A stretch of DNA of 64,000 nucleotides from an uncultured Fibrobacteraceae bacterium (GCA_964384825.1 CAYLMM010000001.1:38552-102551), one strand, 5' to 3'; positions 32,941 to 64,000 are shown, numbered from the stretch's first letter. Notes: generated from the letters alone by a model not told the origin. Numbers and translations: made by a program.

Positions 32941-32957
32941 GATCTCGGCCCTGGTGC

Positions 32958-33479: not shown

Positions 33480-33528
33480 CGGACGGCTCCCGTTCCGCCG
33501 GATCGGTCATCCGGCCCTGCAGATCCCG

Positions 33529-34416: not shown

Positions 34417-34424
34417 CGGTCCGG

Positions 34425-34922: not shown

Positions 34923-34951
34923 GTCTCGATCCTCCTGCGGTCGAGGAAACA

Positions 34952-37228: not shown

Positions 37229-37301
37229 CCTTCGACCTGGTCCGGATCGCGGGCATATCCGCCCGGAATCCAAAAGCAACCCGCATGCCACAGCGGCCGC
37301 G

Positions 37302-38885
37302 TCAGATCTCGATCAGTTCCTCGTCCTCGAGCGGAATGAACTCGTCCGAAATCGGCCGGCTCGCCCGCTGGATCCGGTGCGTCTGGATCGACATCGAGGA
37401 CCGGGCCTGTTCCGAAGCCTTGCCCTTGATCACGGTCCCCTCGGTCTCGAGCTTGCCGCGCTCCCCCTGGAGGATCCGGATCAGGGTGTTGACCAGCTCG
37501 TTCAGCTCCTTGGCCTGGGCGGAAAGCTCTTCGCTCGCCGACGCCGTCTCCTCGGCGTTGGCGGCGTTGGACTGGGTCAGATGGTCGATCTGGGTGACCG
37601 CGTTGTTGATCTCGACGACGCCCTGCGCCTGCTCGTTCGAGGCGGTGGTGACGTCGGACATCAGGGCGGTCATCTTGCCGGTGCGGGTCACGATGCCCTC
37701 CAGGACGCTGCCCACCTCCTCGCAGACGCGCACGCCGTTGTCGGCGCTGTGCTGCGAATCCTGGATCAGGGCGGCCGTCTCGCTGGCGGCCTCGGCGCTG
37801 CGCTGGGCCAGGTTGCGGATCTCCTCGGCCACCACGGCGAAGCCCTTGCCGGCGTCGCCGGCGTGCGCGGCCTCGACTGCCGCATTCAGCGACAGCAGGT
37901 TGGTCTGGAAGGCCATGTCGTTGATGGTGTGGACGATCTTGGCGGTCTGATCGGCGGCCGTCTTGATCTGGACGATGGCCCCGTCCATCCGGCTCATCGC
38001 CTCCTGGCAGGTCTCGGTCGACGAGCGGACCTCGCCGGCGACGCGGTTCGCCTCGCGGGCGCTCTCGGCGTTGCCCTGGGTCGATGTCGACAGCTGGGCC
38101 AGGGACGCGGATGTCTGTTCGAGGCTCGACGCCTGCTCGCTGGCGCCCTCGGCCATCTCCTGGCTGGCGTTTGCGACCTGATGGCTGGCGGCCGCCACCT
38201 GGTCGGCCCCGCTGGACAGTCCGTCGACCAGCAGCGACAGGGTCCCGACGATGTTGCGGACGATGGCCCAGCACATCCCTATCGCCACGGCGCCGGACAG
38301 GATGCTCATGCAAAGCAGCCACCAGAAGTTGCCCCTGGCCGTGCGGTACATCCCGCCTTCATCGAAGGCGCGCTGCTCGGCCGCCAGCTCGTTGACCTCG
38401 TCGAAGACCTCCATCAGCGACTGCAGGGCCGGCAGGGTCCGTTCCAGATAGATGCCGCGCGCCCCTTCGGCGTTCCCGGAGGCCAGGGCGGCCTGGATCG
38501 CTCGAGCCGATTCATGCAGTTCCCGGTGCGGCATTTCCAATCTGGCCAGCAGAGGGGCGAATTCCTCGTCGTTCTCAACCGCGTCGAGACGCTCCTGGGA
38601 GTAGTACCACTTGCCGAAATCGCAGCCGTGGTCGTTGATCTCCAGGTCCTTCTGCGCCGCATCGCTGCCGACGAAGATCTCGTTGAGCGTCTTGACCCAT
38701 TTGAGATTGTCCATCTGGCCCCGGCTCACGTCGGCCAGCAGTTCGTTGCTGGCGCTCGAGTGACCGACCTCGCCCATCAATCTGTTCATGTTGTAGAGCG
38801 AAACCACGGTGCTGATGGTCACCAGGACCAGGACGCAGGCGAAACCCACGCCGATGGTCTTGCCGATGCTGAGATTCTTGAACAT
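37302..38885 (-). CDS. mcp: Methyl-accepting chemotaxis protein
   Basis: Two TM helices. The periplasmic region carries C-D-F-G-K-W...H-R-E-L-H. The signalling domain carries [35 protein letters not shown]. Confidence 0.85.
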
Positions 38886-39129
38886 CGTCCTTCTCCGGTG
38901 TCGATGGCCGCTCCGGTCCCCGGCGGGTGGGTTCCCGAAGCCGTGCGCGCGCTCCGCTCCATCGGGGCGCGGAAAACATGGATTCTGAAGGTTCTTCGGC
39001 CCGCGGCGGGGGAACTTGACGCCTTAATCGGCAATTTCCTCGGGGGTTGCCCGATTCCGGGCCGATCGGTGCCTCGGGCGGGAAATCGGGGGGCGATATC
39101 CTGGGAATCCGACGCAACGGCACGAAAAA

Positions 39130-39156
39130 GCCCCGCGGCAGAGGTTGCCGCGGGGC
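39130..39156 (-). terminator. Intrinsic terminator downstream of porB
   Basis: Perfect 11-bp stem GCCCCGCGGCA-GAGGU-UGCCGCGGGGC. On the minus strand it is followed by UUUUUCGUG, about 30 nt after the porB stop. Confidence 0.7.
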
Positions 39157-39186
39157 CTCGTCTTCGGCGGAATCTTCCGGCGCGGA

Positions 39187-40125
39187 TCAGCCCTCTTCGC
39201 AGAGCTTGACGATCTTGGCGAACTCGTCGTCGACCCAGCGCTGGATCTCCTCGAGGATGCCCTCGTTTCCCGGCTTGAACAGATGCTTGAACCGCACCTG
39301 CTGCTTCAGCCAGTCGACGATCGGCGGACGGTCCTCCTTGGGCTTGTACGTCAGCTTGTACACGCCGTTCTCGACCTCGAACAGTGGCCAGAAATTGGTC
39401 TCGACCGCCTGCTTGGCCAGCTCGATGCCCTTGGCCTGGTCGAAGCCCCAGCCCACGGTGCAGGGCATCAGGACATTCAGGAAGGCCGGCCCGTCGACCG
39501 CCAGGGCCTTGGCGACCTTGGCCTGCAGATCGCGCCAGTGGAAGGGCGTGGTCTGGGCCACGTAGGGAATGTTGTGCGCCACCAGGATCTTGGTCAGATC
39601 CTTGCGGTGCTGCTCCTTGCCCTGCTTGACCGATCCGGCCGGCGCGGTCGAGGTGTGCGCCCCCATCGGGGTGGCGCCGGACCGCTGGATGCCGGTGTTC
39701 ATGTACGCCTCGTTGTCGTAGCAGACGTACAGCATGTCGTGCCCGCGCTCCATGGCGCCCGACAGGGACTGCAGTCCGATGTCGTAGGTGCCGCCGTCGC
39801 CGCCGAAGGCGATGAAGTTCATCTTCTCGCGCTCGACAGGCAGGTCGCCGCGCTTCTTCAGGGCGCGGAAACCCGTCTCGACGCCCGAGATCGTCGCCGC
39901 GGCGTTCTCGAAGGCGCTGTGGATGAACGGCGTCTTCCACGCGGTGTACGGGAAGATCGTGGTGACGACCTCCATGCATCCGGTGGCGCTGCACACGACA
40001 GTGTCGGGGCCCGCGGTCAGCATGACCTGGCGCAGGATGTTGGCTCCGGTGCAACCGGCGCAGGCGCGGTGCCCGCCGGCCAGGAGGTCCTCACGCTGGG
40101 AAAGAGTCTGCAGATTGACAGCCAT
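39187..40125 (-). CDS. porB: Pyruvate/2-ketoacid:ferredoxin oxidoreductase beta subunit (TPP-binding)
   Basis: MAVNLQTL...CAGCTG...GGDGGTYDIG. Confidence 0.85.
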   Translation of the reverse strand: MAVNLQTLSQREDLLAGGHRACAGCTGANILRQVMLTAGPDTVVCSATGCMEVVTTIFPYTAWKTPFIHSAFENAAATISGVETGFRALKKRGDLPVEREKMNFIAFGGDGGTYDIGLQSLSGAMERGHDMLYVCYDNEAYMNTGIQRSGATPMGAHTSTAPAGSVKQGKEQHRKDLTKILVAHNIPYVAQTTPFHWRDLQAKVAKALAVDGPAFLNVLMPCTVGWGFDQAKGIELAKQAVETNFWPLFEVENGVYKLTYKPKEDRPPIVDWLKQQVRFKHLFKPGNEGILEEIQRWVDDEFAKIVKLCEEG

Positions 40126-40139
40126 GATTCCCTCCTTTC

Positions 40140-41327
40140 CTAGAGCCTGACGCCCAGCAGGTTGACGGCCTCGGTTTCGGCGCCGCCGGCGATGGCCTGC
40201 AGCTCGTCCAGAAGTTTCCCGATCATCTCGGTGTCGGTGTCGCGGCCGCCCAGGCCGTAGATCCAGTCGTGGACCTTCGGGGCGTCGGGGACCCCGTAGA
40301 GCGCGGCGCGGATCTCGTTGAAGACCGGGCCGCCGAAGCCGCCGAACGAGGCCGACTTGTCCATCACGCCGACGACCTTGACCGGAGCCAGGACCTCGGC
40401 CAGGGCCGCGGCCGGGAAGGGGCGGAACATCCGGATCTTCACCAGACCGGCCTTGACGCCCTTCTCGCGGTAGGCGTCGACCGCGACCTTGGCGGTGCCG
40501 GCGGCCGAGCCCAGGGCGACCAGGGCGATCTCGGCGTCGTCCATCCGGTACGACTCGAACCAGGAGTACTCGCGGCCGCTGCCGGCGCTGAACTCCTTGT
40601 AGACGTCGGCGATCACCGCCGGCGCCCGCTTCGCGGCCTCGATCTGCGAAAGCTTGTGCTCGAAGTAGTAGTCCGTCAGATCCAGCGGACCGACGGTCAC
40701 CGGCTTCTCGACGTCCAGCAGCGAATAGCCGGTCTTCATGTCCTTCGGACCGACGAACTTCCAGGCGTCGTCGTCGTCGAGAACGTGGATCGACTCGGCC
40801 GTATGGCTGATGATGAAGCCGTCGTAGCACACCATCACCGGCAGCCGGACGTCCTTGTGCTCGGCGATGCGGAAGGACATCAGGGCCTGGTCGTAGGCCT
40901 CCTGAGTGTTCTCGCAGAAGAGCTGGATCCAGCCCGAGTCGCGGCCGCCCATCGAGTCGGAGTGGTCGTTGTGGATGTTGATGTTGCCCGAAAGCGCGCG
41001 GTTGACCAGCGCCATGCAGATCGGCAGGCGCAGGCTGGCCGCCACGTAGACGATCTCCCACATCAGCGCGAAACCGGCCGAGCTGGTGGCGGTGATGGTG
41101 CGGGCGCCGGTCGCGGCGGATCCCACCGCGGCGGACATCGCCGAATGCTCGCTCTCGACCAGGATCATCTCGGTGTCGACCTCGCCGTTGGCGACGAAGT
41201 CGGCGAACTTGTGCATCATCTCGGTCTGGGGCGTGATCGGGAAGGCCGGCGCCACATGGGGCCTGGCCTGCTTGAAGGCGGTGGCCACGGCCTCGTTCCC
41301 GGTCAACCCGACGAAGTTCTGCTTCAT
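40140..41327 (-). CDS. porA: Pyruvate/2-ketoacid:ferredoxin oxidoreductase alpha subunit
   Basis: MKQNFVGLTGNEAVATAF...AFPITPQTE. Confidence 0.85.
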   Translation of the reverse strand: MKQNFVGLTGNEAVATAFKQARPHVAPAFPITPQTEMMHKFADFVANGEVDTEMILVESEHSAMSAAVGSAATGARTITATSSAGFALMWEIVYVAASLRLPICMALVNRALSGNINIHNDHSDSMGGRDSGWIQLFCENTQEAYDQALMSFRIAEHKDVRLPVMVCYDGFIISHTAESIHVLDDDDAWKFVGPKDMKTGYSLLDVEKPVTVGPLDLTDYYFEHKLSQIEAAKRAPAVIADVYKEFSAGSGREYSWFESYRMDDAEIALVALGSAAGTAKVAVDAYREKGVKAGLVKIRMFRPFPAAALAEVLAPVKVVGVMDKSASFGGFGGPVFNEIRAALYGVPDAPKVHDWIYGLGGRDTDTEMIGKLLDELQAIAGGAETEAVNLLGVRL

Positions 41328-43602: not shown

Positions 43603-45648
43603 TCAGAACAGGCCGGCAGGATCCATGTCCAGCAGCACGTCGACTCCCCTGCGCCGCGACTTGGCGGCCCGAGCGCAGTCGGCCAGCCACTGCTTCTGCC
43701 GCACGGTGGGATCCCCCTTGATCAACAGCTGGTACCTGTAGCGGTCCTGCAGACGCGCGAAGACTGCCGGCGCGGGGCCCAGCAGATCGCAGCCGAAACC
43801 TGCCAGGGGTTCGCGCAGGACCTCGGCGAGCTCGTCCGCTGCCGCGGACACGTCGCCCAGGCGGCGCCCGCTGATCCCGACGCGGACCAGCCGCCGGAAG
43901 GGCGGATATCCCAGCTGCTCGCGAACGGGCATCTCGCCCTCGGCGAAGGCGATGAAATCCTGGGCCGCGGCCGCCCTGATCACCGGATGCTCGGGCTGCC
44001 AGGTCTGCAGGATCACCCGGCCGGTCTCGGTGCGGCCGGTCCGCCCCGCGACCTGGGTCAGCAGCTGGAACGACCGCTCCTGGGCGCGGAAATCCGGCAG
44101 CGACAACCCGTCGTCGGCGGCCAGCACGCCCACCAGCCCGACGTTCGGGAAATGATGTCCCTTGGCCACCATCTGGGTGCCCACCAGGATGTCGGCTTCA
44201 CCCCGCGCGAAGGCCGTCAGGATGCGGCCGTGGCTGCCGCGGCGGCGGGTCGCGTCGTGGTCGAGCCGCAGGACCCGGGCGCCGGGGAACTGGGCCGCGA
44301 GCGCGAGTTCGATCTTCTCGGTCCCGCCCCCCGAGGGCAGGAACGCCTGGGCGCCGCAGTCCGGGCATTTCTGCGGCACCGGCTCGGAATGGCCGCAGTA
44401 GTGGCAGAGCAGGCTCCGCGGCCGCAGGTGGAGGGTCATCCCGATGTCGCACCGGGGACAGCGCACCGCCTCGCCGCATTCGCCGCACTGCAGGGACCGC
44501 GCGAAACCCCGCCGGTTGTAGTAGAGGATGATCTGGCGGCTCCGCTCGAGGGTCTGCTCCATCCTCTCGAGCAGCGTTTCGGAGAATCCCTCCCGTCCGC
44601 CGCCGCCCCGCATATCGATGATCTCGACCTCCGGCAGGCTTCCCACCGGCCGATCGAGCAGCCGGACGTGCTCGTAGCGCCCCTCGCGAGCGTTGCGCCA
44701 GCTCTCGAGGTCGGGGGTCGCCGATCCGAGGATGACGAAGGCGCCGGCCTCCCGGGCTCTGATCAGCGCGGCGTGGCGGGCGTGGTAACGGGGTTTCTCG
44801 TCCTGCTTGTAGGAATTCTCGTGCTCCTCGTCGAGCACGATCAGGCCCAGGTCCTTCACCGGAGCGAAGAGGGCCGAGCGCGGCCCCACCACGACCCGGA
44901 TGTCGCCGGCCGCCGCGGCTTCGTGCACCCGGCTGCGCTCGCCCGCCGAGAGTCCGCTGTGCAGGGTCCCGATCCGGTCGCCGAACCGCCCGCGGATCCT
45001 GGACACCGTCTGGGGCGTGAGCGCGATCTCGGGAAGCAGATACAGGGCGCTGCGGCCCCTCTCGATCGCCTCGTGGATGGCCCGCAGATAGACCTCGGTC
45101 TTGCCCGATCCGGTCACCCCGTGCAGGAGCATGGCGCCGTAGGCGCGACGGTCGAGATGGTCGGCGGCCACGGCCACGGCGCGGGCCTGGTCGGCGGTCG
45201 GCACGATCCGCGCCGCGTCCTCGTCCATGGGGAATTCGGAACTTTCGTGCCGGGAACGTCGCGCGCGCGTGCCTGGCGCGGGGGGATGGAACAGGGGAAC
45301 GATCTCGCCCAACGGCAGGGCGTAGTAGGCGGCCAGCCAGCGGGCCAGGCGCAGGCGATCGTCGCCGAGACGATAGGCGGGCCCCAGCAGGCGGGTCACC
45401 GGACGCAGGGGATTGCCGTCGACCTGCTCCACCGCGCCCGGTTCGCGCCTTTCGGCCACGACCAGGCCCAGCAGGCCCCGGCGCCGGCCGAAAGGCACGG
45501 CGACCAGGTCGCCGACCGTCGGTTCCGCGCCGTTCTCCCCGGTATCGGGCTCCCAGCGGTAGGTGAAGGTTCGGGGCAGGGGAACCGGCAGCGCCACCTC
45601 GACCAGCAGCGTGCTCCCGGATCCGCCGGCCGGTGCGTCAGGGGTCAC
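43603..45648 (-). CDS. priA: Primosomal protein N' (replication restart helicase PriA)
   Basis: Walker A GVTGSGKT, helicase motif II VLDEEHE, and a Cys-rich zinc-binding module CGECGEAVRCPRCD...CHYCGH...CPDCG. Confidence 0.9.
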   Translation of the reverse strand: MTPDAPAGGSGSTLLVEVALPVPLPRTFTYRWEPDTGENGAEPTVGDLVAVPFGRRRGLLGLVVAERREPGAVEQVDGNPLRPVTRLLGPAYRLGDDRLRLARWLAAYYALPLGEIVPLFHPPAPGTRARRSRHESSEFPMDEDAARIVPTADQARAVAVAADHLDRRAYGAMLLHGVTGSGKTEVYLRAIHEAIERGRSALYLLPEIALTPQTVSRIRGRFGDRIGTLHSGLSAGERSRVHEAAAAGDIRVVVGPRSALFAPVKDLGLIVLDEEHENSYKQDEKPRYHARHAALIRAREAGAFVILGSATPDLESWRNAREGRYEHVRLLDRPVGSLPEVEIIDMRGGGGREGFSETLLERMEQTLERSRQIILYYNRRGFARSLQCGECGEAVRCPRCDIGMTLHLRPRSLLCHYCGHSEPVPQKCPDCGAQAFLPSGGGTEKIELALAAQFPGARVLRLDHDATRRRGSHGRILTAFARGEADILVGTQMVAKGHHFPNVGLVGVLAADDGLSLPDFRAQERSFQLLTQVAGRTGRTETGRVILQTWQPEHPVIRAAAAQDFIAFAEGEMPVREQLGYPPFRRLVRVGISGRRLGDVSAAADELAEVLREPLAGFGCDLLGPAPAVFARLQDRYRYQLLIKGDPTVRQKQWLADCARAAKSRRRGVDVLLDMDPAGLF

Positions 45649-45767
45649 TTCGTCCTCCCGGAACGAGGCCGCGCCCCGCGCCGGCGGCGCGGGGACGGTG
45701 CGGCCCGTGTGTCGGGAGGAATACTAACCGCCGGACGGCCGGGGGGCAACGGCGGCCTGGAGCGGGC

Positions 45768-46148
45768 TCACTTGCTGGCCACCCCGAGAAAGGAATGGAC
45801 GATATCCATCAGGCTGTTGGGACTGAACGGCTTGGTGACGTAGGCGTCGGCCGCCACCTCGCGCCCGCGTTTCTGATCGCCCCGGGTGGACCGCGCGGTC
45901 AGCAGGACGACCGGGATGTCCCGGGTCCGCGAGTCGGCCTTCAGCTTGCGGCAGGTCTCGAACCCGTCCAGACGCGGCATCATGACGTCCATGATGATCA
46001 GGTCGGGCGGATTCTCGCCGGCCAGCTTCAGCGCCTCTTCGCCGTCCTCGGCCTGGATCACGCGGTAGCCTTCCGCATCGAGGCTGAAGTCCAGGATGTT
46101 CCGCACCGAACGTTCGTCGTCGACAACCAGGATCTGGCGCAATGTCAC
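45768..46148 (-). CDS. Response regulator receiver (stand-alone REC)
   Basis: 126 aa: ILVVDDERSVR...DLIIMDVMMPRLDG...TKPF. Confidence 0.8.
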   Translation of the reverse strand: MTLRQILVVDDERSVRNILDFSLDAEGYRVIQAEDGEEALKLAGENPPDLIIMDVMMPRLDGFETCRKLKADSRTRDIPVVLLTARSTRGDQKRGREVAADAYVTKPFSPNSLMDIVHSFLGVASK

Positions 46149-48862
46149 TCCTTGACGGGCTTGCCGTCGGCGTCTTCGCCTACGACGGCCCCGACCAGCT
46201 CGGGTTCGTCCTCGTCCAGGACTCCCGCGAGTACGGCCTCGGTATTCAGTTCTCCGTTGACCACGATCCCGGCCTCCGTCTCGTCCTCCTCGAAGTCGGA
46301 GGGCGTGTAGCCGAGAGCCGCCGGGTTCAGGGTGCGGTCCTTCTGCAGATTGGCGATCCGAGCCCGGTACTTGCGCGCCTCGGCGGCGAAGGCCTCGGCG
46401 CAGACGGGGCAGTACTGCGAGCCCGCCCGGTCCTTGATCTCGACCAGCGCGTCGTTCAGGCTGATCGCGCGCCGGTAGGGCCGCCCCTGCAGCATGGCGT
46501 TGAGGCTGTCGACCAGCACCAGCAGCCGGGATCCGACCGGGATCTCCTCGCCCTTCAGACCGTCCGGATATCCCGAGCCGTCATAGTGCTCGTGATGGTG
46601 CAGGATGACCCGGCGCACGTCGGCCGAGGCGTCCAGCGGGGCCACCATCTCCAGGCTCCGCGAGACGTGCTGCTTGATGGTCTCCCATTCCTCGTGGATC
46701 AGCGGCGTCGTCTTGTAGAGGATGGCGTCGGGCACGCCGGACAGGCCCAGATCGTAATGCTGCAGCGCGAAGGCCAGGTTCGCCAGGTCGGCGCGCGACA
46801 TCCCCATCTTCTGGGCCGCGCCGACGCAGATCTCGTGGGTGATCTCGGTCAGCCGGTCGTGGCGCGCGCGGCGGACGGCGACGCCCGTGCGCAGCGATTC
46901 GCGCAGGGACGCGTATTCGCGGTTGCGCCGCTGGTAGGCCGCGGTCCGGAAGAGCATCGTGCCCAGGCGCTCGGAAAGCGATTCGAGCAGCAGCTGGTCC
47001 CGGGCCGAGAAGGGCCGGCCGTCGAGACGGTTGTTGACGTTGACCACGCCCAGGATCTCGTCGTTGTAGCGGATCGGCACGCTCAGCAGGGAACCGGTCG
47101 CGTAGCGGTCGCGCGCCGGATCGCGTTCGACGCGGTCGTCCTGATCCATGTCGCTGACCAGCAGGGTCTCGCCGGTCTGCCAGACCTTGCCCGCGACCCC
47201 CTGTCCGCGGCGGACGCTGGTGCGCTGGACGACTCCGTCCTCGAGGCCCATCGCCGCCTCGATCACCAGATGCTCGAGATCGGAATCGGGCACCATCAGC
47301 GAGACGATCCGCACGCGCATCAGCTCGCCGATCCAGTGGATCAGCTTGCCGGCGAACTCCTGCGGCTCGGTGAAGGCGGGCAGCTTCTCGTTGCGGGTCG
47401 AGCGGTGGACCACGCCGTGGCGGCGGGGCAGCACGACGTTGAAACGCATTCCGTGCGGCTGGACGCTCTCGCCCCAGATCCGGCCGCCGTGCCGCGTCAC
47501 GATGTCGCGGCAGAGGGCCAGTCCGATCCCCTGGCCGCCGTGCTGGCGCGTCGAGGAGCTGTCGACCTGGTAGAAGCGGTCGAAGATGTAGGCCATCTTG
47601 TTGGCCGGAATACCCGAACCGGTATCCTCGACGCAGATCCGCACCGAGGAGATCCCGTCCATCAGCGAGAGGCGGACCTCGCCGCCCGACGGGGTGAACT
47701 TCAGGGCGTTGTCCAGCAGGTGCCGGATGAGCTGGCGGACCAGATCGGGATCCACCGAGAGGCGGATCTCCTCGCGGTCCACCGTGACGGCGAACTTGAT
47801 GCCCCTCGCCTCGGCCTGGCTGCGGCCGCTGGCCTCGATGCCGCGGGCCAGCGCCACCAGATCGGTCTGGTGCCGGTTGAGGGTCACCTGCTCGGCCTCC
47901 ATGCGCGACAGATCCAGCAGGTTGTCGATGATCACCGCCAGCTTCTCGCTCTCCTGGTGGATGACCTCGAGGAACTCGGTCGAGGTGTCGCCGTCCAGAT
48001 GGCCCCGGCAGAGGGCCTCGGTGTAGGCCTTGATCGAGGTCAGCGGGGTGCGCAGCTCGTGGCTGACGTTGGCCACGAAATCGCTCTTCATGTCGTTGAG
48101 CTGCTGCGACTGCTTGGCGGCGCGCGAAAGCTCGGCGTTCTGCTCGTGCAGCTGGGCGTTGAGCTCGGCCGACGAGATGGCCGTGGCGGCCTGGCTGGCG
48201 AAGAGCTCGAGCTGGCGGATGACCTCGAGCGAAGGGATCTTGCGGTCGATCGGATCGTCGACGCTGAGATAGCCCACCACTTCGCCGTCGAGCGAGGTCA
48301 GGGGCACGATCAGCATGTCCTGCTCGGTCCATTCACCCTCGTCGCGTTCGCCCAGGTCGGGCTCGTAGGCGCCCTGCGCCGCCTCTTCCCATTCCTCGTC
48401 CAGGTGGGTGACCAGGTAACTGTCCGACACGCGGCATCTGGGCGGCGTGATCCTCTGGAAATCCTCCTGGGTGACCGGTTTGCCGGCCAGGTGGATCTGG
48501 CCCTCCTCGTCGATCCCCGCGAAGGCGCGGGCCTCGAAGATGCCGGTCTTGGGGTCGAAGATGCGCAGCAGCACCATGCGGAAACCCAGCGATTGCCTCA
48601 CCTCGTCCACGATGTCGTCCAGAAGCTGGCTCGTGCTCCGGGTGGCGTGGATCCGGGCGGCGATCTGCAGCAGCCGTTCGAGATTCGAGGCGCGTTTCCG
48701 GCGCCGCGATTCGTCCCGCTTGATCTCGGACCGCTCCCGGCGCCAGCGCAGGATCATGATTCCGGCGCCCGCCAGCAGCGCGAGCGAGGCCAGCAATCCC
48801 TGTTCGGCATAGGGGATCCCGATGGCTGCGGGCATCCCGGCGATGATGGTGGCTACGAACAT
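46145..48862 (-). CDS. Hybrid sensor: TM-GAF-HisKA-HATPase_c-GAF-HD-GYP
   Basis: H-box VSHELRTPL, G-boxes DTGSGI and GGQGIGL, and a C-terminal HHHEHYDGSGYP (HD-GYP signature). There is an N-terminal TM segment and two GAF-like regions. Its stop overlaps the downstream REC ATG. Confidence 0.8.
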   Translation of the reverse strand: MFVATIIAGMPAAIGIPYAEQGLLASLALLAGAGIMILRWRRERSEIKRDESRRRKRASNLERLLQIAARIHATRSTSQLLDDIVDEVRQSLGFRMVLLRIFDPKTGIFEARAFAGIDEEGQIHLAGKPVTQEDFQRITPPRCRVSDSYLVTHLDEEWEEAAQGAYEPDLGERDEGEWTEQDMLIVPLTSLDGEVVGYLSVDDPIDRKIPSLEVIRQLELFASQAATAISSAELNAQLHEQNAELSRAAKQSQQLNDMKSDFVANVSHELRTPLTSIKAYTEALCRGHLDGDTSTEFLEVIHQESEKLAVIIDNLLDLSRMEAEQVTLNRHQTDLVALARGIEASGRSQAEARGIKFAVTVDREEIRLSVDPDLVRQLIRHLLDNALKFTPSGGEVRLSLMDGISSVRICVEDTGSGIPANKMAYIFDRFYQVDSSSTRQHGGQGIGLALCRDIVTRHGGRIWGESVQPHGMRFNVVLPRRHGVVHRSTRNEKLPAFTEPQEFAGKLIHWIGELMRVRIVSLMVPDSDLEHLVIEAAMGLEDGVVQRTSVRRGQGVAGKVWQTGETLLVSDMDQDDRVERDPARDRYATGSLLSVPIRYNDEILGVVNVNNRLDGRPFSARDQLLLESLSERLGTMLFRTAAYQRRNREYASLRESLRTGVAVRRARHDRLTEITHEICVGAAQKMGMSRADLANLAFALQHYDLGLSGVPDAILYKTTPLIHEEWETIKQHVSRSLEMVAPLDASADVRRVILHHHEHYDGSGYPDGLKGEEIPVGSRLLVLVDSLNAMLQGRPYRRAISLNDALVEIKDRAGSQYCPVCAEAFAAEARKYRARIANLQKDRTLNPAALGYTPSDFEEDETEAGIVVNGELNTEAVLAGVLDEDEPELVGAVVGEDADGKPVKE

Positions 48863-48880
48863 CGTTCTCCGCCTTGCTTT

Positions 48881-49267
48881 CTAATGCAGTCCCGTTCTCA
48901 CCTCGAGCAGTTCCCGGACCTGCTCGACCAGGTGGGATATGACGAACGGCTTCGTGACGTACAGATCGGCCCCGGCCTTGCGCATGTCCTCCCGCACGGA
49001 ATGATCCGCCCGGGCGGAAAGCGCGATGATCAGGGTGTCGGCGTAGTCCCGGTTCCAGCGGATCAGCCGGGTGGCGTCGATGCCGTCCAGCTTCGGCATC
49101 ATCACGTCCATGATGATGACGTCCGGCAGGAAGGTCGCGACCTTGTTCATGCAGTCGATTCCGTCGCCTGCCGACGCGACGACGAATCCCTCGTCCCTGA
49201 ATGTCCGGACGAGCAGCGAAACCAGCGGCCTCTCGTCCTCGACGACCAGAACGCGAATCTTCTCCAT
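48881..49267 (-). CDS. Response regulator receiver (stand-alone REC)
   Basis: MEKIRVLVVEDE...DVIIMDVMMPKLDG...TKPF. Confidence 0.8.
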   Translation of the reverse strand: MEKIRVLVVEDERPLVSLLVRTFRDEGFVVASAGDGIDCMNKVATFLPDVIIMDVMMPKLDGIDATRLIRWNRDYADTLIIALSARADHSVREDMRKAGADLYVTKPFVISHLVEQVRELLEVRTGLH

Positions 49268-49278
49268 CCTGCTCCTGT

Positions 49279-50283
49279 CTAGACGGCGCAATTGCCCTTG
49301 TCCGGGTCCACGGCGCCCGTCGGCTGCTGGCCCTGGACCTGGCTGCGGCGGTCATGGACGACAACGCTGCCGGCGAGGGACTTGCCGTATTTCTTGAGTT
49401 CCGCCATGACCGCGTTGATGCTGCCGACGTGTCCGAAGCGGCCCGCGGTGTCGATGATCACCGCGATGGTCACCGAGACCGGGGGGAACTTCTTCAGCGA
49501 ATCCGCGCGGTCGGGGATCTCGATGTAGCCGCGCTCCCAGTCCTCGGGTTCGTAGAGGAAGCGGATGCTCTCGTCGAACCTGTTCTTCATGGTCTCGGCC
49601 AGTTCCATCGCCTCGTCCTCCGAGACGATGACCACGAAATCGTCGCCGCCGACGTGCCCCACGAAGGATTCGGCGGAGTCCCGTTCCTCGACCACCGCGG
49701 CGATGCATTCGGCCAGCAACGCGATGACCCTGTCGCCGCGGGAATATCCGTAGTAGTCGTTGTAGGCCTTGAAGTTGTCGAGATCCAGGTAGAGGTATCC
49801 GAAGGATTCCCCGTCCTCCAGACGCTTCTCAAGCTCCCTTGTGATGGCGCGGTTGCCGGGCAGGCCGGTCAAGGGGTTGGCGTCGCGCTGGCTGCGGCTC
49901 AGCTGCAGCATGTTGCGCACCCGGAGCATCAGCTCGTCGGGAACGAAGGGCTTGGTCAGGTAGTCGTTGGCCCCCTCCTGGAGACCGCGGACCCGCTGCG
50001 GGGTGTCGCCGCGTGCGGTGAGCATGATCACCGGCAGCGTCCTGGTCCGAATCTGGCCGCGGATGCGCTCGAGGACCGAGAATCCGTCCAGTCCGGGCAT
50101 CATGACATCCAGCATCACCAGGTCGGGGTCGTTGGTCTTGAGCCACTCCAGGGCTTCCTCGCCGTCCTGGGCGACCTGCACCCTAAATCCTTCTTTTTCA
50201 AGCATATAACTTAGGATTGTACGGATCGGCGGTTCGTCGTCGACGATCAGGATCAGCTCGCCATCGAACATTGCGGTCTCCAT
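49279..50283 (-). CDS. Response regulator with a C-terminal GGDEF-family domain (motif reads GGDDF)
   Basis: The REC domain reads LILIVDDEPPIR...DLVMLDVMMPGLDG...TKPF. It is followed by a GGDEF domain with LYLDLDNFKAYND and HVGGDDFVV. Confidence 0.8.
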   Translation of the reverse strand: METAMFDGELILIVDDEPPIRTILSYMLEKEGFRVQVAQDGEEALEWLKTNDPDLVMLDVMMPGLDGFSVLERIRGQIRTRTLPVIMLTARGDTPQRVRGLQEGANDYLTKPFVPDELMLRVRNMLQLSRSQRDANPLTGLPGNRAITRELEKRLEDGESFGYLYLDLDNFKAYNDYYGYSRGDRVIALLAECIAAVVEERDSAESFVGHVGGDDFVVIVSEDEAMELAETMKNRFDESIRFLYEPEDWERGYIEIPDRADSLKKFPPVSVTIAVIIDTAGRFGHVGSINAVMAELKKYGKSLAGSVVVHDRRSQVQGQQPTGAVDPDKGNCAV

Positions 50284-50399
50284 GCATTGTGAGACATACC
50301 GAGCCGGAATGACCCCGGCGCGGCGCCAACTTGCAATCCCCATGCCATGTACGGAACGATGAGATACGGTGAGGAACGACGGGAAGGCGATTCCGGGGA

Positions 50400-51410
50400 T
50401 CAGCGCCAGGAAGCGATGGGACGGCGCGCGAAGCTGTCCAGGGACAAGGCGTCGCGGCATCCGGCGGCCAGCCGCGCCCAGCCGGCGTAGGCGATCATGG
50501 CCGCGTTGTCGGTGCAGTATGCGATTTCCGGCGGGCGGAAGTGCACGCCCAGCCGGTCGGCGACCGCGGCGGTCCGGGACCGCAGGAAGCTGTTGGCCGC
50601 CACGCCGCCGGCCAGATAGACCGCGCGCACCCGGTGCTTGCGGGCCGCCTGCTCAAGCCGGGTGGTCAGGACATCGGCCACCGCCTCGTTCAGTTCGAGG
50701 GCGACGTCGGCAACGTCCTGCGGATCGAAGGGGCGGGACAGCTGCTCGACCTGCAGGCGCACGGCCGTCTTCAGGCCGCTGAAGCTGAAGACCACCCGCG
50801 GATCGCGGATCAGAGGACGGGGGAAATGGAAGCGTCCGGGTCGGCCGTCGGCCGCCAGCCGGTCCAGGACCGGCCCGCCGGGATACGGCAGGCCGAGGAT
50901 CTGGGCGGACTTGTCGAAGGCCTCGCCGGCCGCGTCGTCCAGGGTGCCGCCGAGCCGTTCGTAGCGGCCCACCTCGCTCATCAGGACGACCTCGCTGTGG
51001 CCGCCGGAAACCACCAGCACCGCCGCGGGGAAGATCATCTCGCCGCTCAGGGCGTTGGCCAGGATATGACCCTCGATGTGATGGACGCCGGCCATCGGGA
51101 TGTCCGCCGCGAAGCAGATCGCCTTGGCGGTCGACAATCCCACCAGCAGGGCGCCGATCAGGCCCGGGCCCGCGGTCACGCCCACCCCGTCGAGATCCCG
51201 GATGCCCATGCCGCGCCTTTCGAGCATGACGTCGACCAGAGGCAGCAGGTTCACCAGATGGGCGCGCGAAGCGAGCTCGGGCACCACGCCGCCGAAATGG
51301 GCGTGCAGATCGATCTGGCTGGAAACCAGGTTCTCGAGGATGCCCCGTTCGGAGTCGTAGAGGGCGACCGAAGTGTCGTCGCAGGATGTCTCGATGCCCA
51401 GGACCTTCAA
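50400..51410 (-). CDS. tsaD: tRNA N6-adenosine threonylcarbamoyltransferase TsaD
   Basis: LKVLGIETSCDDTSVAL...GVHHIEGH, the Kae1/TsaD metal-binding HxxxH...H pattern. No in-frame ATG or GTG lies upstream, so the start is inferred to be TTG overlapping the nnr stop (TTGA). Confidence 0.82.
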   Translation of the reverse strand: MKVLGIETSCDDTSVALYDSERGILENLVSSQIDLHAHFGGVVPELASRAHLVNLLPLVDVMLERRGMGIRDLDGVGVTAGPGLIGALLVGLSTAKAICFAADIPMAGVHHIEGHILANALSGEMIFPAAVLVVSGGHSEVVLMSEVGRYERLGGTLDDAAGEAFDKSAQILGLPYPGGPVLDRLAADGRPGRFHFPRPLIRDPRVVFSFSGLKTAVRLQVEQLSRPFDPQDVADVALELNEAVADVLTTRLEQAARKHRVRAVYLAGGVAANSFLRSRTAAVADRLGVHFRPPEIAYCTDNAAMIAYAGWARLAAGCRDALSLDSFARRPIASWR

Positions 51411-52981
51411 CAGACGCCTCCGGGAACGAGGTGGGCCTCGATCTCGGCGAAGGCCTCGCCGAGGCGGCGGGCCACGTCGCCGGCCCGGACCACGCGGCGA
51501 GAGCCCAGATCCGAGGCGGCCAGGCATCCGGCCCGGCCGTGCAGGCGGCAGCCGAGCAGGGCGGCGTCGCGCGCCGAGCACCCCTGACCCAGCAGGCCGC
51601 CGATCAGTCCGGTCAGCACGTCGCCGGTCCCCCCGTGGGCCAGCGCGTCGTGGCCGCAGGGGTTGATGGTCGCCGAACCGTCGGGAAGGCCGATCACCGT
51701 GGGCGATCCCTTCGAGACCAGGGTCGCTCCCCAGCGGGCCGCCAGTTCGGGCACGATTTCCAGGCGGCGTTCGGCCAGGACGGCGGTGTCCATGTCGGCC
51801 AGGCGCGCCAGCTCGCCCGCGTGGGGCGTGAGAACGACATGTTCGGAAGCGAATTCCGGTTCGCGGCCGAGCCTGGCGAAGGCCGAGATGGCGTCGGCGT
51901 CGACGACCACCGGCAGCGAGACCTCGGCCAGCAGATCGGCGACGAAGGCGTCGGTCCGGGGATCCGAGCCCATGCCCGGTCCCACCGCCAGGGCGGATTC
52001 CCGGGTCAGCAACGCGGCGCGCGCCTCGCGGTCGAGCGGGATCAATCCCCCCTCCTCGCCGGTCGGCAGGGCGATCTGCGGCGCTTCGGGCAAGGCGGCC
52101 AGAACCGCCGTGGAATGCACGTCCGGCACGGCCATGGTGACCAGGCCGACGCCCGAAGCCAGGGCTCCCATCCCGGCCAGGATCGCGGCGCCGCCGTAAC
52201 GGCGGGATCCGGCCAGCACCAGGGTCGTGCCGCAATTGTACTTGTGCGCGTCGGTGGGACGCGGCGGCAGCAGGTCGGCGTAATCGGCCGGCAGCAGGAA
52301 TTCGATGCGGTCGGTGTGACGCTCGCAGGCCTCGATCGGGAACCCGATGTCGACGACCGAGAGGTCGCCCGTGAAATCGCGGCCCGGCGGCAGCAGCAGG
52401 CCGAGCTTCGGCAGTCCGACGGTGATCGTGACGTCGGCCTTCACGGCGATCGGATCGACGTCGCCGGTGTTGCCCGAGACACCGGACGGGATGTCGATGC
52501 TGACCACCGGCGCGGGACCGGCGTTGAAGACCCGGAAGAGCTCGGCGTGATGATCGCGCACCGGCGGCTGGATGCCGGTGCCGAAAACGGCGTCGACGAC
52601 CAGATCGGATTCCTCGCAGAACGATTCCCAGACCGGCGCCCACTGGTCGCGGGGCGGGATCACCACGTCGACCCCGCCGGGCAGGCGCTCGTGGTTGATG
52701 CGGCCCTCGTCCGACAGGCCGCCGGGTTCGGCCAGGAGCATGACGCTGACCGTGTAGCCCAGGCCGTCGAGCAACCGGGCCACGACCAGGCCGTCGCCGC
52801 CGTTGTTGCCCTTGCCGCAGCAGATCGCGACGCGGGCCGGCGGCTCGAGGCCGGGATGCAGGCGGATCAGCTCCCAGGTGATCTCGCGGCCGGCGGTCTC
52901 CATCAGGTCCAGACCCGGTACGCCGCCGTCGATGGTCTCGCGGTCGATGGCGCCCATCTGCTTGGCTGTGGCTACTCGCAT
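51407..52981 (-). CDS. nnr: Bifunctional NAD(P)H-hydrate repair enzyme Nnr (epimerase + ADP-dependent dehydratase, YjeF family)
   Basis: The YjeF-N half reads CCGKGNNGGDGLVVARLL. The YjeF-C, carbohydrate-kinase-like half reads GPGMG...DADAI...TPHAGE...GGTGDVLTG. Confidence 0.85.
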   Translation of the reverse strand: MRVATAKQMGAIDRETIDGGVPGLDLMETAGREITWELIRLHPGLEPPARVAICCGKGNNGGDGLVVARLLDGLGYTVSVMLLAEPGGLSDEGRINHERLPGGVDVVIPPRDQWAPVWESFCEESDLVVDAVFGTGIQPPVRDHHAELFRVFNAGPAPVVSIDIPSGVSGNTGDVDPIAVKADVTITVGLPKLGLLLPPGRDFTGDLSVVDIGFPIEACERHTDRIEFLLPADYADLLPPRPTDAHKYNCGTTLVLAGSRRYGGAAILAGMGALASGVGLVTMAVPDVHSTAVLAALPEAPQIALPTGEEGGLIPLDREARAALLTRESALAVGPGMGSDPRTDAFVADLLAEVSLPVVVDADAISAFARLGREPEFASEHVVLTPHAGELARLADMDTAVLAERRLEIVPELAARWGATLVSKGSPTVIGLPDGSATINPCGHDALAHGGTGDVLTGLIGGLLGQGCSARDAALLGCRLHGRAGCLAASDLGSRRVVRAGDVARRLGEAFAEIEAHLVPGGVC

Positions 52982-53724
52982 GGCTTCGCGACCCCCTTGT
53001 CTCCGTTGAGGCGATCCAGGACATCCAGCAGCTGCAGCAGATCGTCGATCTCGAATTCCGCGCCGGAATCTCCGTCGGCGCGATCGCGGTCGGCCGATTC
53101 GTAGGTATCGCCGTAGCGCGCGTAGACGGTGTGCAGGCCCGCGCCCGCCCCGCCGACGATGTCGCGTTCGGGCCAATCGCCCACCATCACCGCCTGGTCG
53201 GGGCGGACATCGAGACGCTCGAGCACCATCCGGAACGGCACCGGGCTGGGCTTCGAAGCGCCGGTGTCGTCGCGGGTCAGGACCACGTCGAAGACATGGT
53301 GGAGGCGCAGATTGCAGAGCCGCAGCCAGGCCTCGAAGCGGGGGGCGTCGCTGACCACGGCCAGCTTGTACCCTTCCTTCAGGAGGCGGTTCAGCGTCAG
53401 GGTGACGTGGGGGTAGGGCAGCAGGGACGCCTCGCGGGCACGGCGGTAGGCGATCACCGCGGCGGCCAGGATCTTGTCGTCGACCCGGCCGAGCTGCTCG
53501 TCGAGGAAGATGTTGAACACCCTCTGGTGCTCGATCCCCTTGTCCTGGTAGATCTCGTAGATCCGCTCGGTGACGTCGGCGGGGCTCAGGCAGAGCCCGG
53601 CGTCGATCATGGCGTCGGCGGCGGCGACGATGGCGTTGCGTTTGACCTGCATGAAGTCGGTCAGCGTGTTGTCGAGATCGAAGACCACGGCCTCGATCGT
53701 CCGTTCCGCGATATGTTTCGGCAT
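52972..53724 (-). CDS. HAD-superfamily hydrolase
   Basis: Motif I VVFDLDNTLTD, motif II VVSDAP, motif III/IV K...VGDWPERD. Confidence 0.7.
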   Translation of the reverse strand: MPKHIAERTIEAVVFDLDNTLTDFMQVKRNAIVAAADAMIDAGLCLSPADVTERIYEIYQDKGIEHQRVFNIFLDEQLGRVDDKILAAAVIAYRRAREASLLPYPHVTLTLNRLLKEGYKLAVVSDAPRFEAWLRLCNLRLHHVFDVVLTRDDTGASKPSPVPFRMVLERLDVRPDQAVMVGDWPERDIVGGAGAGLHTVYARYGDTYESADRDRADGDSGAEFEIDDLLQLLDVLDRLNGDKGVAKPCE

Positions 53725-63866: not shown

Positions 63867-64000
63867 CTCGCCGAGCCCGGGCAGCAGGCCGCCCTCGACC
63901 CGCTGGCGATAGAAGAACAGGCCGTTGCTCGATGGCGCCTCGTGCAGTTCGGCGCCGACGCTGTCGGCGGCCGAGGTCGCCGGGTCGGCGGCGAGGATCC

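What the first reader, a model, noticed from the sequence alone, without database searches (positions are those of the whole stretch)
45768..50283. Two-component and c-di-GMP module with atypical HD-GYP and GGDDF motifs
The minus-strand run is REC-GGDDF, then REC, then a TM-GAF-HisKA-HATPase-GAF-HD-GYP hybrid kinase, then REC. The genes are joined by overlaps or short gaps, including ATGA at 46145-46148. The kinase polypeptide carries an HD-GYP phosphodiesterase signature (HHHEHYDGSGYP), but the upstream HD motif reads QHYD rather than the usual HD-I-GK context. The cyclase-type domain of the REC-GGDEF protein reads GGDDF instead of GG(D/E)EF. Either or both catalytic domains may be degenerate sensor or receptor domains. 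Having three receivers for one kinase suggests a branched phosphorelay that controls c-di-GMP turnover.
Basis: partly seen in the sequence, partly recalled or inferred. Interest (0 to 1): 0.55.

Follow-up and report, generated by a model that had tools for sequence, protein, structure and literature searches.

The report
Kinase operon with variant c-di-GMP domains

Summary
The genes and motifs are real. The minus strand carries REC-GGDDF, REC, TM-GAF-HisKA-HATPase-GAF-HD-GYP kinase and REC, between tsaD and priA. One detail is wrong: 46145-46148 reads GTGA, not ATGA, and the last gene probably starts at TTG 46142.

The kinase's HD-GYP domain is degenerate in a conserved way. Six residues needed for activity in PmGH (D183, E185, H189, H221, K225, D308) are replaced. 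D222, H250, H276, H277, D305, GYP and the RxYR c-di-GMP motif are kept. Its best structural match is DvhD, a non-catalytic HD-GYP c-di-GMP receptor. It is most likely a c-di-GMP sensor feeding back on the kinase; the feedback step is inferred.

The middle REC follows a second kinase in related five-gene loci, and that kinase is absent here. "Three receivers for one kinase" is therefore too simple. Overall: a new variant of known kinds, of moderate interest.

The parts
49279..50271 (-). REC-GGDDF response regulator gene (330 aa; an alternative ATG at 50283 adds 4 residues)
   Evidence: ORF. Pfam Response_reg 1.8e-35 and GGDEF 3.4e-17, the latter covering profile positions 5-107 of 161 only. Same 330-aa product called on the public contig.
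49906..50253 (-). Receiver domain of REC-GGDDF, with an intact acidic pocket and phospho-acceptor Asp55 (LDVMMP)
   Evidence: aligns to PleD REC1 over 117 residues.
49336..49890 (-). GGDEF-fold domain of the H-V-GGDDF subfamily
49636..49650 (-). GGDDF motif (residues 208-212), preceded by the invariant G-H-V
   Evidence: Translation. H[VI]GGDDF in 119/120 homologues and GH.GGDD[FY] in 141/150 distant representatives.
48881..49267 (-). Single-domain receiver REC2 (128 aa), the orthologue of the receiver that follows kinase HK1 in five-gene loci
   Evidence: Pfam 1.9e-25. ATG after AGGAG. 58-59% identity to the post-HK1 receivers of L002, L003, L006, L008 and L011, 49% to that of L016. Distinct alpha1 signature.
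46145..48862 (-). Membrane-anchored sensor histidine kinase with a C-terminal GAF-'YD-GYP' module (905 aa)
   Evidence: Pfam GAF, HisKA, HATPase_c, GAF and HD_5. 120 orthologues with the same architecture.
48743..48862 (-). N-terminal hydrophobic segment(s), residues 1-40; no periplasmic domain
   Evidence: Kyte-Doolittle maxima of 1.67 and 1.76. A hydrophobic N-terminus is present in 108/120 orthologues.
48143..48667 (-). GAF1, the presumed cytoplasmic input domain
   Evidence: Pfam GAF/GAF_2, second stretch. Own HMM 2.8e-74.
47420..48091 (-). HisKA (H-box SHELRTPL, His267) plus HATPase_c catalytic core
   Evidence: Pfam HisKA 2.2e-20 and HATPase_c 4.7e-27. Translation.
46952..47368 (-). GAF2, linking the kinase core to the HD-GYP domain (a PmGH-like GAF-HD-GYP arrangement)
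   Evidence: Pfam GAF_2 9.4e-23 at residues 499-635.
46358..46900 (-). HD-GYP-fold domain with a degenerate catalytic centre ('YD-GYP')
46751..46756 (-). Y703-D704 in place of the HD dyad (PmGH H221-D222); L707 replaces the catalytic Lys (K225)
   Evidence: Alignments to 4MCW, 5Z7C and 4R8Z. Y in 116/120, D in 119/120 and L/M in 112/120 orthologues.
46565..46600 (-). HHHEHYDGSGYP: double-His, Glu and GYP motif retained
   Evidence: Conservation of H756 115/120, H757 119/120, E758 118/120, G764 120/120, Y765 117/120 and P766 120/120.
45768..46142 (-). Single-domain receiver REC3 (124 aa from TTG 46142; GTG 46148 is the alternative start)
   Evidence: Pfam 8.6e-30. AAGGAG-N5-TTG. Public gene call of 124 aa. 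A REC3-type receiver accompanies REC-GGDDF in most related loci.

Best explanation
This is a conserved four-gene two-component / c-di-GMP module of an uncultivated high-GC bacterium related to Krumholzibacteriota, Eisenbacteria and Latescibacteria.

Shown: a membrane-anchored, GAF-containing HisKA kinase with all kinase motifs is encoded with three intact receivers.

Shown: the first receiver is fused to a GGDEF-fold domain of a distinct, widespread subfamily (signature ANPLTGLPGN ... G-H-V-G-G-D-D-F ... ELKxxGK). This subfamily keeps the metal-binding Asp residues, the guanine-specifying Asn/Asp and the two phosphate-binding basic residues. It has no I-site.

Inferred: phosphorylation of this receiver by the kinase drives dimerisation and synthesis of c-di-GMP. 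GGDDF is a working variant of GG(D/E)EF, not a dead one.

Shown: the kinase's C-terminal GAF-HD-GYP module has lost the residues that build the H/M metal pair, plus the catalytic Lys-Asp pair. It keeps the G-site ligands, GYP and the RxY[K/R] c-di-GMP recognition motif.

Inferred: it no longer hydrolyses c-di-GMP. Instead it binds it, as DvhD does, and shifts the kinase/phosphatase balance. That would give product feedback at the level of the kinase in place of the missing I-site.

Inferred: REC3 shares an alpha1 specificity signature with REC1 and is a second substrate of the same kinase, acting as phosphate sink or adaptor. REC2 is the partner of a second, HK1-type kinase present in related five-gene loci. 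Here it is served either by cross-talk or by an unlinked kinase.
For: Domain architecture and motifs. Same gene calls on public contigs, and the same tsaD...priA setting in relatives down to 57% kinase identity.

GGDDF domain.
- H[VI]GGDDF is kept in 119/120 homologues.
- GH.GGDD[FY] is kept in 141/150 representatives that are at most 50% identical to each other. There are 2,050 representative clusters at E<=1e-30 and at least 579 species genomes across many phyla.
- Invariant residues map to PleD as D44=D327, N50=N335, D59=D344, G87-F91=GGEEF, K172/K176=K442/R446.
- RxxD is absent in 117/120 and 146/149 sequences.
- A GGDDF enzyme (GSU1937) is active in vivo (PMC8835794).
- The domain is fused to EAL, HD-GYP and canonical GGDEF domains in other proteins. 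It is adjacent to HD-GYP or HDOD genes in other loci. Both observations tie it to c-di-GMP-type signalling.

HD-GYP domain.
- Alignments to PmGH, V-cGAP3, PA4781 and DvhD, plus neighbouring canonical HD-GYP proteins as column controls, give D183->R, E185->R, H189->L, H221->Y, K225->L and D308->N.
- D222, H250, H276, H277, D305, GYP, K235, R314 and K317(R) are kept. All of this is conserved across 120 orthologues.
- In PmGH, the H189A, H221A, D183A, K225A and D308A substitutions abolish activity. c-di-GMP still binds with only the G-site metal present (PMC4159591).
- RxY[K/R] specifies c-di-GMP (bioRxiv 10.1101/2021.11.05.467447).
- PA2572, with YN-GYP, is inactive (PMC3411652).
- c-di-GMP is known to switch a histidine kinase (CckA) to phosphatase mode (PMC5026420).

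Receivers: orthology and alpha1 signatures.
Against: There are no biochemical data for any member of either family.

The fourth motif residue is the catalytic base acting across the dimer, and a shorter Asp could impair it (PMC8835794). PA3258, a GGDDF-EAL protein, shows no cyclase phenotype (same paper).

The mapping of K172/K176 onto PleD K442/R446 rests on my manual alignment and the shared fold, not on a significant sequence alignment. The C-terminal half of the domain has no sequence match on its own.

The GGDDF-type domain also occurs next to a canonical GGDEF domain in one protein. That could mean it is regulatory.

The HD-GYP domain retains five metal ligands under strong conservation, which would also fit residual or altered catalysis.

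The feedback from c-di-GMP binding to kinase output is pure inference. A domain C-terminal to the ATPase domain could equally be an output.
Confidence: 0.5

Rival explanations
1. This is an ordinary cyclase/phosphodiesterase pair. The YD-GYP domain is still a c-di-GMP (or cGAMP/pGpG) phosphodiesterase working with a reduced, one- or two-metal centre. The kinase then carries its own degrading activity as an output.
For: D222, H250, H276, H277, D305, GYP and RxYR equivalents are almost invariant. HD-GYP metal centres are heterogeneous: RpfG lacks the E185 and H189 equivalents, and PA4781 has an unselective bimetallic site (PMC4159591). In PmGH the E185A and D305A variants keep some activity.
Against: H221A, H189A, K225A, D183A and D308A each abolish PmGH activity, and here all five positions are changed together. 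The nucleophile is proposed to be the hydroxide bridging the M-H pair, whose ligands are the missing ones. YN-GYP PA2572 and SQ-GYP DvhD are inactive. [quoted passage not shown]
Confidence: 0.2
2. The GGDDF-type domain is a non-catalytic nucleotide-binding module, a GTP or c-di-GMP sensor like the GGDEF of CC3396/PdeA. REC-GGDDF would then be an effector or adaptor rather than a cyclase.
For: The motif departs from GG(D/E)EF at the catalytic-base position. PA3258 (GGDDF-EAL) shows no cyclase phenotype. The domain occurs in tandem with a canonical GGDEF and with EAL domains. R366 of PleD is replaced by an invariant His.
Against: In most genomes REC-GGDDF has no other output domain. Both G's, both acidic residues, the beta1 Asp and both basic residues are invariant over about 2,000 divergent clusters. 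That is more than a binding-only role usually preserves. The GSU1937 GGDDF domain is active, and its GADDF mutant is not.
Confidence: 0.2
3. The H-V-GGDDF subfamily is a cyclase with a different product: another cyclic di- or oligonucleotide, or a linear pppGpG-type molecule. The kinase's YD-GYP domain would be its dedicated receptor.
For: The C-terminal half is family-specific in sequence and carries an extra helix and strand with invariant D123, G127 and R134. There is a weak Cas10 palm2 similarity around GGDD (E 0.0044). GGDEF enzymes with altered product specificity exist (Hypr GGDEFs, PMC8835794).
Confidence: 0.1

Closest known systems
WspR / DgcR / PleD-type REC-GGDEF response regulators
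   Different: The motif is GGDDF with an invariant preceding His in place of Arg366. There is no RxxD I-site. The C-terminal half is unrecognisable by sequence: Pfam covers only profile positions 5-107 of 161, and there is no PDB hit for that half alone. It also has an extra helix and strand.
GSU1937 of Geobacter sulfurreducens (Hypr GGDDF enzyme, PMC8835794)
   Same: A GGDDF motif in an enzyme shown to be active in vivo. This is the precedent that Asp at position 4 can work.
   Different: GSU1937 has the Hypr Ser at the D344 position and an N-terminal membrane domain. The window protein keeps Asp and has a receiver.
PmGH (GAF-HD-GYP c-di-GMP phosphodiesterase, PDB 4MCW)
   Different: The D183, E185, H189, H221, K225 and D308 equivalents are replaced. 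The module is fused behind a complete histidine kinase.
DvhD of Desulfovibrio vulgaris (non-catalytic HD-GYP c-di-GMP receptor, PDB 9RBZ, PMC13090378)
   Different: DvhD lost both the HD dyad (SQ) and the double His (MN). The window protein keeps D222 and HH. DvhD is a dCache-PAS inside-out receptor, not a kinase.
PA2572 of Pseudomonas aeruginosa (REC-YN-GYP)
   Same: Tyr replaces the His of the HD dyad. It is enzymatically inactive but has a regulatory role (PMC3411652).
   Different: PA2572 also lost the Asp (YN) and is a response regulator, not a kinase.
CckA (c-di-GMP-switched histidine kinase/phosphatase, PMC5026420)
   Same: It provides the functional analogy for the proposed mechanism: the second messenger binds the kinase and biases it towards phosphatase.
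   Different: CckA binds c-di-GMP on its catalytic/DHp domains. It has no HD-GYP domain and is not homologous in the sensing part.

Membership tests
GGDEF diguanylate cyclase (Pfam PF00990) | GGDEF/palm fold | tested here: met
GGDEF diguanylate cyclase (Pfam PF00990) | Profile match above the Pfam gathering score | tested here: met
   63.1 bits against a cut-off of 23.8, but only profile positions 5-107 of 161 are matched.
GGDEF diguanylate cyclase (Pfam PF00990) | Active-site motif [G/A/S]G[D/E]E[F/Y] | tested here: not met
   The motif reads GGDDF, with Asp at the catalytic-base position. It is invariant in the subfamily. One GGDDF enzyme is known to be active (PMC8835794).
GGDEF diguanylate cyclase (Pfam PF00990) | Metal-binding Asp in beta1 (PleD D327) and guanine-binding N335/D344 | tested here: met
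   HMMER alignment to PleD. D44, N50 and D59 are invariant in the subfamily alignment.
GGDEF diguanylate cyclase (Pfam PF00990) | Phosphate-binding K442/R446 in alpha4 | tested here: inconclusive
   Invariant K172-x-x-G175-K176 lies in the predicted alpha4. The equivalence rests on a manual alignment, with the PleD sequence recalled from memory. No significant sequence alignment covers this half.
GGDEF diguanylate cyclase (Pfam PF00990) | RxxD inhibitory site (common, not obligatory) | tested here: not met
   Absent in the window protein, in 117/120 homologues and in 146/149 representatives.
GGDEF diguanylate cyclase (Pfam PF00990) | Synthesis of c-di-GMP from GTP | not testable with these tools
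   Requires an enzyme assay.
HD-GYP c-di-GMP phosphodiesterase | HD-GYP fold and profile (Pfam HD_5) | tested here: met
HD-GYP c-di-GMP phosphodiesterase | HD dyad (PmGH H221-D222) | tested here: not met
   Y703-D704. Tyr is present in 116/120 orthologues.
HD-GYP c-di-GMP phosphodiesterase | N-terminal His ligand (H189) and the D183/K225/D308 catalytic or structural residues | tested here: not met
   These positions are L671, R665, L707 and N788. Canonical HD-GYP proteins from neighbouring loci show H, D, K and D in the same HMM columns. The DvhD alignment agrees.
HD-GYP c-di-GMP phosphodiesterase | HHExxDGxGYP motif plus the H250 and D305 ligands | tested here: met
   HHHEHYDGSGYP, H732 and D785 are each at least 95% conserved.
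HD-GYP c-di-GMP phosphodiesterase | RxY[K/R] c-di-GMP specificity motif | tested here: met
   R794-P-Y-R797. R794 is present in 118/120, and R/K797 in 119/120.
HD-GYP c-di-GMP phosphodiesterase | Hydrolysis of c-di-GMP | not testable with these tools
   Requires an enzyme assay. The loss of residues essential in PmGH predicts no activity.
Non-catalytic HD-GYP c-di-GMP receptors (DvhD-like) | Loss of catalytic metal ligands with retention of nucleotide-contact residues | tested here: met
   The set of lost ligands differs from DvhD, where the HD dyad reads SQ and the double His reads MN.
Non-catalytic HD-GYP c-di-GMP receptors (DvhD-like) | High-affinity c-di-GMP binding without turnover | not testable with these tools
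   Needs ITC, nanoDSF and HPLC assays.
HisKA-family sensor histidine kinase | HisKA with a phospho-acceptor His and an HATPase_c domain | tested here: met
   Pfam HisKA 2.2e-20 and HATPase_c 4.7e-27. H-box SHELRTPL with His267. The N box (DNALKFT), G1 (DTGSGI), F (FDRFYQ) and G2 (GGQGIGL) were read by eye in the translation.
CheY-like receiver (three copies) | Acidic pocket, phospho-acceptor Asp, Thr/Ser and Lys | tested here: met
   Pfam 1.8e-35, 1.9e-25 and 8.6e-30. DD/ED ... D(VMMP) ... T/S ... K(PF) is visible in all three.

The most novel reading that the evidence does not exclude
The G-H-V-G-G-D-D-F domain defines a widespread, ancient and so far uncharacterised class of GGDEF-fold nucleotide cyclases, with about 2,000 divergent clusters across many phyla. 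Its catalytic geometry and regulation, and possibly its product, would differ from canonical diguanylate cyclases. In this bacterial clade it would be wired to histidine kinases that have converted an HD-GYP phosphodiesterase into a built-in second-messenger sensor. That would create a kinase-level feedback loop replacing the classical I-site.
Probability: 0.15. Interest if true: 0.75.

Novelty: new variant of a known kind. Interest (0 to 1): 0.45.

Why it matters
Genome surveys routinely score GGDEF and HD-GYP domains as active or degenerate from their name-giving motifs.

This locus shows both failure modes side by side. A motif that looks broken (GGDDF) is the hallmark of a large, strongly constrained and probably active subfamily that current profile libraries only half recognise. 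A domain that carries a perfect HHE...GYP signature has lost the residues that do the chemistry.

A histidine kinase with a built-in c-di-GMP-sensing HD-GYP module would be a new way of coupling two-component signalling to second-messenger levels. It can be tested directly with four small soluble proteins. The practical pay-off is better rules for annotating c-di-GMP enzymes in uncultivated phyla.

Tried and rejected

2. Sequence search of the C-terminal half of the GGDDF domain alone against the PDB: nothing significant.

3. Rfam scan of the whole window for c-di-GMP or other riboswitches: no match.

4. Promoter and terminator scan of 45400-50700: nothing above the shuffled expectation. It is uninformative for this phylum.

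5. I asked whether the poorly active D. vulgaris DVU2067 is a member of the subfamily. The paper gives no motif in its text and the sequence was not retrievable. Left open.

6. Foldseek against AFDB50, to find named UniProt members: the library was unavailable.

7. Cluster look-up for organism names of the window proteins: no names. Taxonomy was therefore inferred only from named relatives.

8. The idea that His702 ('QH-YD') substitutes for the missing HD histidine. H702 occurs in only 3/120 orthologues, so it is not the conserved feature. Rejected.

9. NCBIfam: only generic PleD, PhoB or PhoR-type hits far below their cut-offs. No curated family exists for either protein.

Full report
WHAT IS THERE

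The minus strand between tsaD (stop near 50400) and priA (43603-45648) carries four tightly packed genes.
- A 330-aa REC-GGDEF-like protein at 49279-50271.
- A 128-aa single-domain receiver at 48881-49267.
- A 905-aa kinase at 46145-48862.
- A 124-aa single-domain receiver at 45768-46142.

The first 40 residues of the kinase are hydrophobic, and 108/120 orthologues share such an N-terminus. Gene calls on the identical public metagenome contig give exactly these four products.

The three motifs are read correctly: GGDDF at 49636-49650, Q-H-Y-D with YD at 46751-46756, and HHHEHYDGSGYP at 46565-46600.

One detail is wrong. The four bases at 46145-46148 read GTGA on the coding strand, not ATGA. 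The likelier start of the last gene is the TTG at 46142, 5 nt behind AAGGAG. The genes are therefore separated by 11, 18 and 2 nt rather than overlapping. NCBIfam has no specific family for any of the proteins. Rfam finds nothing in the window.

THE GGDDF DOMAIN IS A CONSERVED SUBFAMILY, NOT A DECAYED CYCLASE

A search of 5.8 billion proteins returned thousands of full-length homologues. Among the best 120 (49-73% identity), 119 carry H-[VI]-G-G-D-D-F.

A profile of the C-terminal domain (alignment A1) was run against 1.84 billion cluster representatives. It found 2,050 clusters at E<=1e-30 with end-to-end matches, out of 353,369 GGDEF-like hits. Of the best 150 representatives, which are at most 50% identical to each other, 141 have G-H-x-G-G-D-D-[FY].

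They span Krumholzibacteriota, Eisenbacteria, Gemmatimonadota, Actinomycetota, Nitrospirota, Chloroflexota, Dormiibacterota, Desulfobacterota, Bacillota, Verrucomicrobiota, Planctomycetota and Acidobacteriota.

The invariant columns of the subfamily include the equivalents of PleD residues, from the alignments:
- D327 (D44), the metal ligand in beta1.
- N335 and D344 (N50, D59), which specify guanine.
- Both glycines and both acidic residues of the motif.
- A K172-x-x-G-K176 pair in the last long helix. By position and spacing it corresponds to K442/R446. This last step is my manual alignment, with the PleD sequence recalled from memory.

Family-specific invariants are the His that replaces PleD R366, the 'PGN' after the N-terminal LTGL turn, an FD pair, and D123/G127/R134 in an extra helix-plus-strand element before beta4. 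The inhibitory RxxD site is absent in 117/120 and 146/149 sequences.

The literature holds one functional precedent. The GGDDF domain of Geobacter GSU1937 is active in vivo, and its GADDF mutant is not. The same paper notes that the fourth residue is the cross-dimer catalytic base, and that PA3258 (GGDDF-EAL) shows no cyclase phenotype (PMC8835794).

In other proteins the GGDDF-type domain is fused to EAL-CBS, to REC-HD-GYP, to a canonical GGDEF, to HAMP, to hybrid kinases and to an RsbW-like ATPase. In Nitrospira it follows and overlaps an HDOD gene. These links place it in c-di-GMP-type signalling.

An active, phosphorylation-controlled, feedback-insensitive cyclase is the most likely reading (about 0.6). 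A nucleotide-binding regulatory role is the main alternative.

THE HD-GYP DOMAIN OF THE KINASE HAS A CONSERVED, CRIPPLED CATALYTIC CENTRE

The evidence comes from three sources: sequence and profile alignments to PmGH (4MCW), V-cGAP3, PA4781 and DvhD; an HMM alignment in which canonical HD-GYP proteins from neighbouring loci serve as column controls; and column counts over 120 orthologues.

Replaced PmGH residues:
- D183 -> R665.
- E185 -> R667.
- H189 -> L671 (L/R/I/V in the family).
- H221 -> Y703 (Y in 116/120).
- K225 -> L707 (L/M in 112/120).
- D308 -> N788 (variable).

Retained PmGH residues:
- D222 (119/120), H250 (120/120), H276/H277 (115 and 119), E278, D305 (119).
- G-Y-P (120/117/120).
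- K235 (K/R in 116).
- R314-x-Y-K317, present as R-P-Y-R (118 and 119).

The His before the Tyr ('QHYD') is peculiar to this protein and two close relatives (3/120). It is not the conserved feature.

In PmGH, Ala substitutions of H189, H221, D183, K225 and D308 each abolish activity. The proposed nucleophile is the hydroxide bridging the M-H metal pair, and c-di-GMP still binds when only the G-site metal remains (PMC4159591). The window domain has lost the H/M-side ligands and kept the G-side ones.

RxY[K/R] is the motif that specifies c-di-GMP rather than cGAMP (bioRxiv 10.1101/2021.11.05.467447). There are two precedents for non-catalytic HD-GYP domains. PA2572 (YN-GYP) is inactive but regulatory (PMC3411652). 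DvhD (SQ...MN...GYP) binds c-di-GMP with Kd about 99 nM without turnover and transmits the signal through its stalk helices (PMC13090378).

I therefore regard a c-di-GMP-binding, non-hydrolysing sensor as most likely (about 0.65-0.7). Residual or altered phosphodiesterase activity is the rival (about 0.2).

THE OPERON IN ITS EVOLUTIONARY CONTEXT

The four-gene arrangement sits in the same housekeeping neighbourhood (Rce1-like, HAD, YjeF/Nnr, TsaD | operon | PriA) in relatives down to 57-62% kinase identity (L082-L084).

In Krumholzibacteriota-type genomes the locus has five genes: REC-GGDDF | HK1-HD-GYP | REC | GAF-HK2-GAF-HD-GYP | REC.
- The window kinase is the HK2 type (YD...L).
- HK1 keeps HD but also lacks the H189 and K225 equivalents (A/S and M).
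- Both kinase-fused HD-GYP types are therefore degenerate, while stand-alone HD-GYP genes in other loci are canonical.

BLAST and alignment show clear orthology of the receivers. The window's REC2 matches the receiver that follows HK1 (49-59% identity). REC3 matches the one that follows HK2 (53-61%).

REC1 and REC3 share an alpha1 pattern (IRxILxFxLxxEG). REC2 has a different one (PLxxLLxxxF), and it is unchanged in the lineages that lack HK1. Helix alpha1 is a main determinant of kinase-receiver specificity (established knowledge). This suggests that the kinase serves REC1 and REC3, and that REC2 belongs to another kinase or depends on cross-talk.

No HK1-type gene is present elsewhere in the window. 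Two unrelated kinases and a chemotaxis cluster are present. Across more distant loci the recurrent core is REC-GGDDF plus a REC3-type receiver, often with some HD-GYP protein nearby.

MECHANISM PROPOSED

Shown: an intact bifunctional-type HisKA kinase (H-E-x-x-T next to the phospho-acceptor His), three intact receivers, a catalytically complete GGDEF-fold domain without an I-site, and an HD-GYP domain with binding residues but without catalytic ones.

Inferred, in four steps:
1. A cytoplasmic signal sensed by GAF1 sets kinase activity.
2. Phosphotransfer to REC1 activates synthesis of c-di-GMP. REC3 competes as sink or adaptor.
3. Rising c-di-GMP binds the C-terminal GAF-YD-GYP module.
4. That binding biases the kinase towards phosphatase, as c-di-GMP does in CckA (PMC5026420).

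The last two steps are the weakest part (about 0.35).

COMPARISON, NOVELTY AND VERDICT

Each element has a known relative: WspR/DgcR/PleD, GSU1937, PmGH, PA2572, DvhD and CckA. Nothing here is categorically new.

Three things are new. The first is that GGDDF belongs to a large, coherent, half-recognised and uncharacterised GGDEF subfamily. The second is a clade-wide fusion of degenerate HD-GYP modules behind histidine kinases. The third is their fixed genetic linkage.

I rate it a new variant of known kinds, with interest 0.45.

Noticed in passing
window 46400-46830 (kinase residues 679, 818, 821): Cys679 lies on the helix that would carry the PmGH H189 ligand. Cys818 is the 'FCP' that replaces the canonical 'FDP'. 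The two co-vary across the 120 kinase orthologues: C...C in about 88 and V...D in about 25. The window protein adds Cys821 (CPVC). This could be a disulfide, metal or redox site replacing part of the lost metal centre.
   Followed up: partly
L002, L003, L006, L008, L011, L016 (e.g. L003:7393-10014): Related Krumholzibacteriota-type loci carry an extra kinase (HK1-HD-GYP) between REC-GGDDF and REC2. Its HD-GYP keeps HD but has Met for the catalytic Lys and Ala/Ser for the N-terminal His. Both kinase-fused HD-GYP paralogues are therefore degenerate in different ways.
   Followed up: partly
P0246, P0250, P0251, P0254, P0257, P0264, P0268, P0286, P0300, P0363: The GGDDF-type domain occurs in many other architectures: EAL-CBS-GGDDF, PAS-GGDEF-EAL-CBS-GGDDF, REC-GGDDF-REC-HD-GYP, REC-GGDDF-GGDEF, REC-GGDDF-EAL, REC-GGDDF-HATPase_c_2, HAMP-GGDDF and hybrid kinase-REC-GGDDF.
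   Followed up: partly
L056:5685-7636 and L023, L036, L048, L057, L059 (Nitrospira): In Nitrospira and some Desulfobacterota the GGDDF domain follows a pseudo-receiver that lacks the phospho-acceptor Asp. In L056 the gene overlaps an upstream HDOD-domain gene.
   Followed up: no
L033:4278-10836 (Actinomycetota); window 43603-53024: REC-GGDDF genes sit in housekeeping neighbourhoods in distant phyla: between rsmB and ribD/ribBA in an actinobacterial genome, and between tsaD and priA here and in L082-L084. Whether this reflects a growth-related role is unknown.
   Followed up: no
window ~29100-41000: A chemotaxis cluster lies a few kb beyond priA. It includes CheA (34955-37312, minus), an MCP with a CZB zinc-binding domain (about 37302-38885, minus), CheY-like receivers (31716-32126 minus; 29103-29546 plus) and a CheB-like ORF (30173-31846). 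Between them is a four-subunit 2-oxoacid:ferredoxin oxidoreductase.
   Followed up: no
window 24530-26188 (-) and 62292-63998 (-): There are two further histidine-kinase ORFs unrelated to the operon. Neither has an HD-GYP domain.
   Followed up: no
window 46142-49282 (+) and other long antisense ORFs: The ORF lister reports very long ORFs antisense to, or out of frame with, the real genes, e.g. 1046 aa on the plus strand opposite the kinase. They have Arg/Gly/Pro-rich translations typical of 68% GC DNA and are not genes.
   Followed up: no
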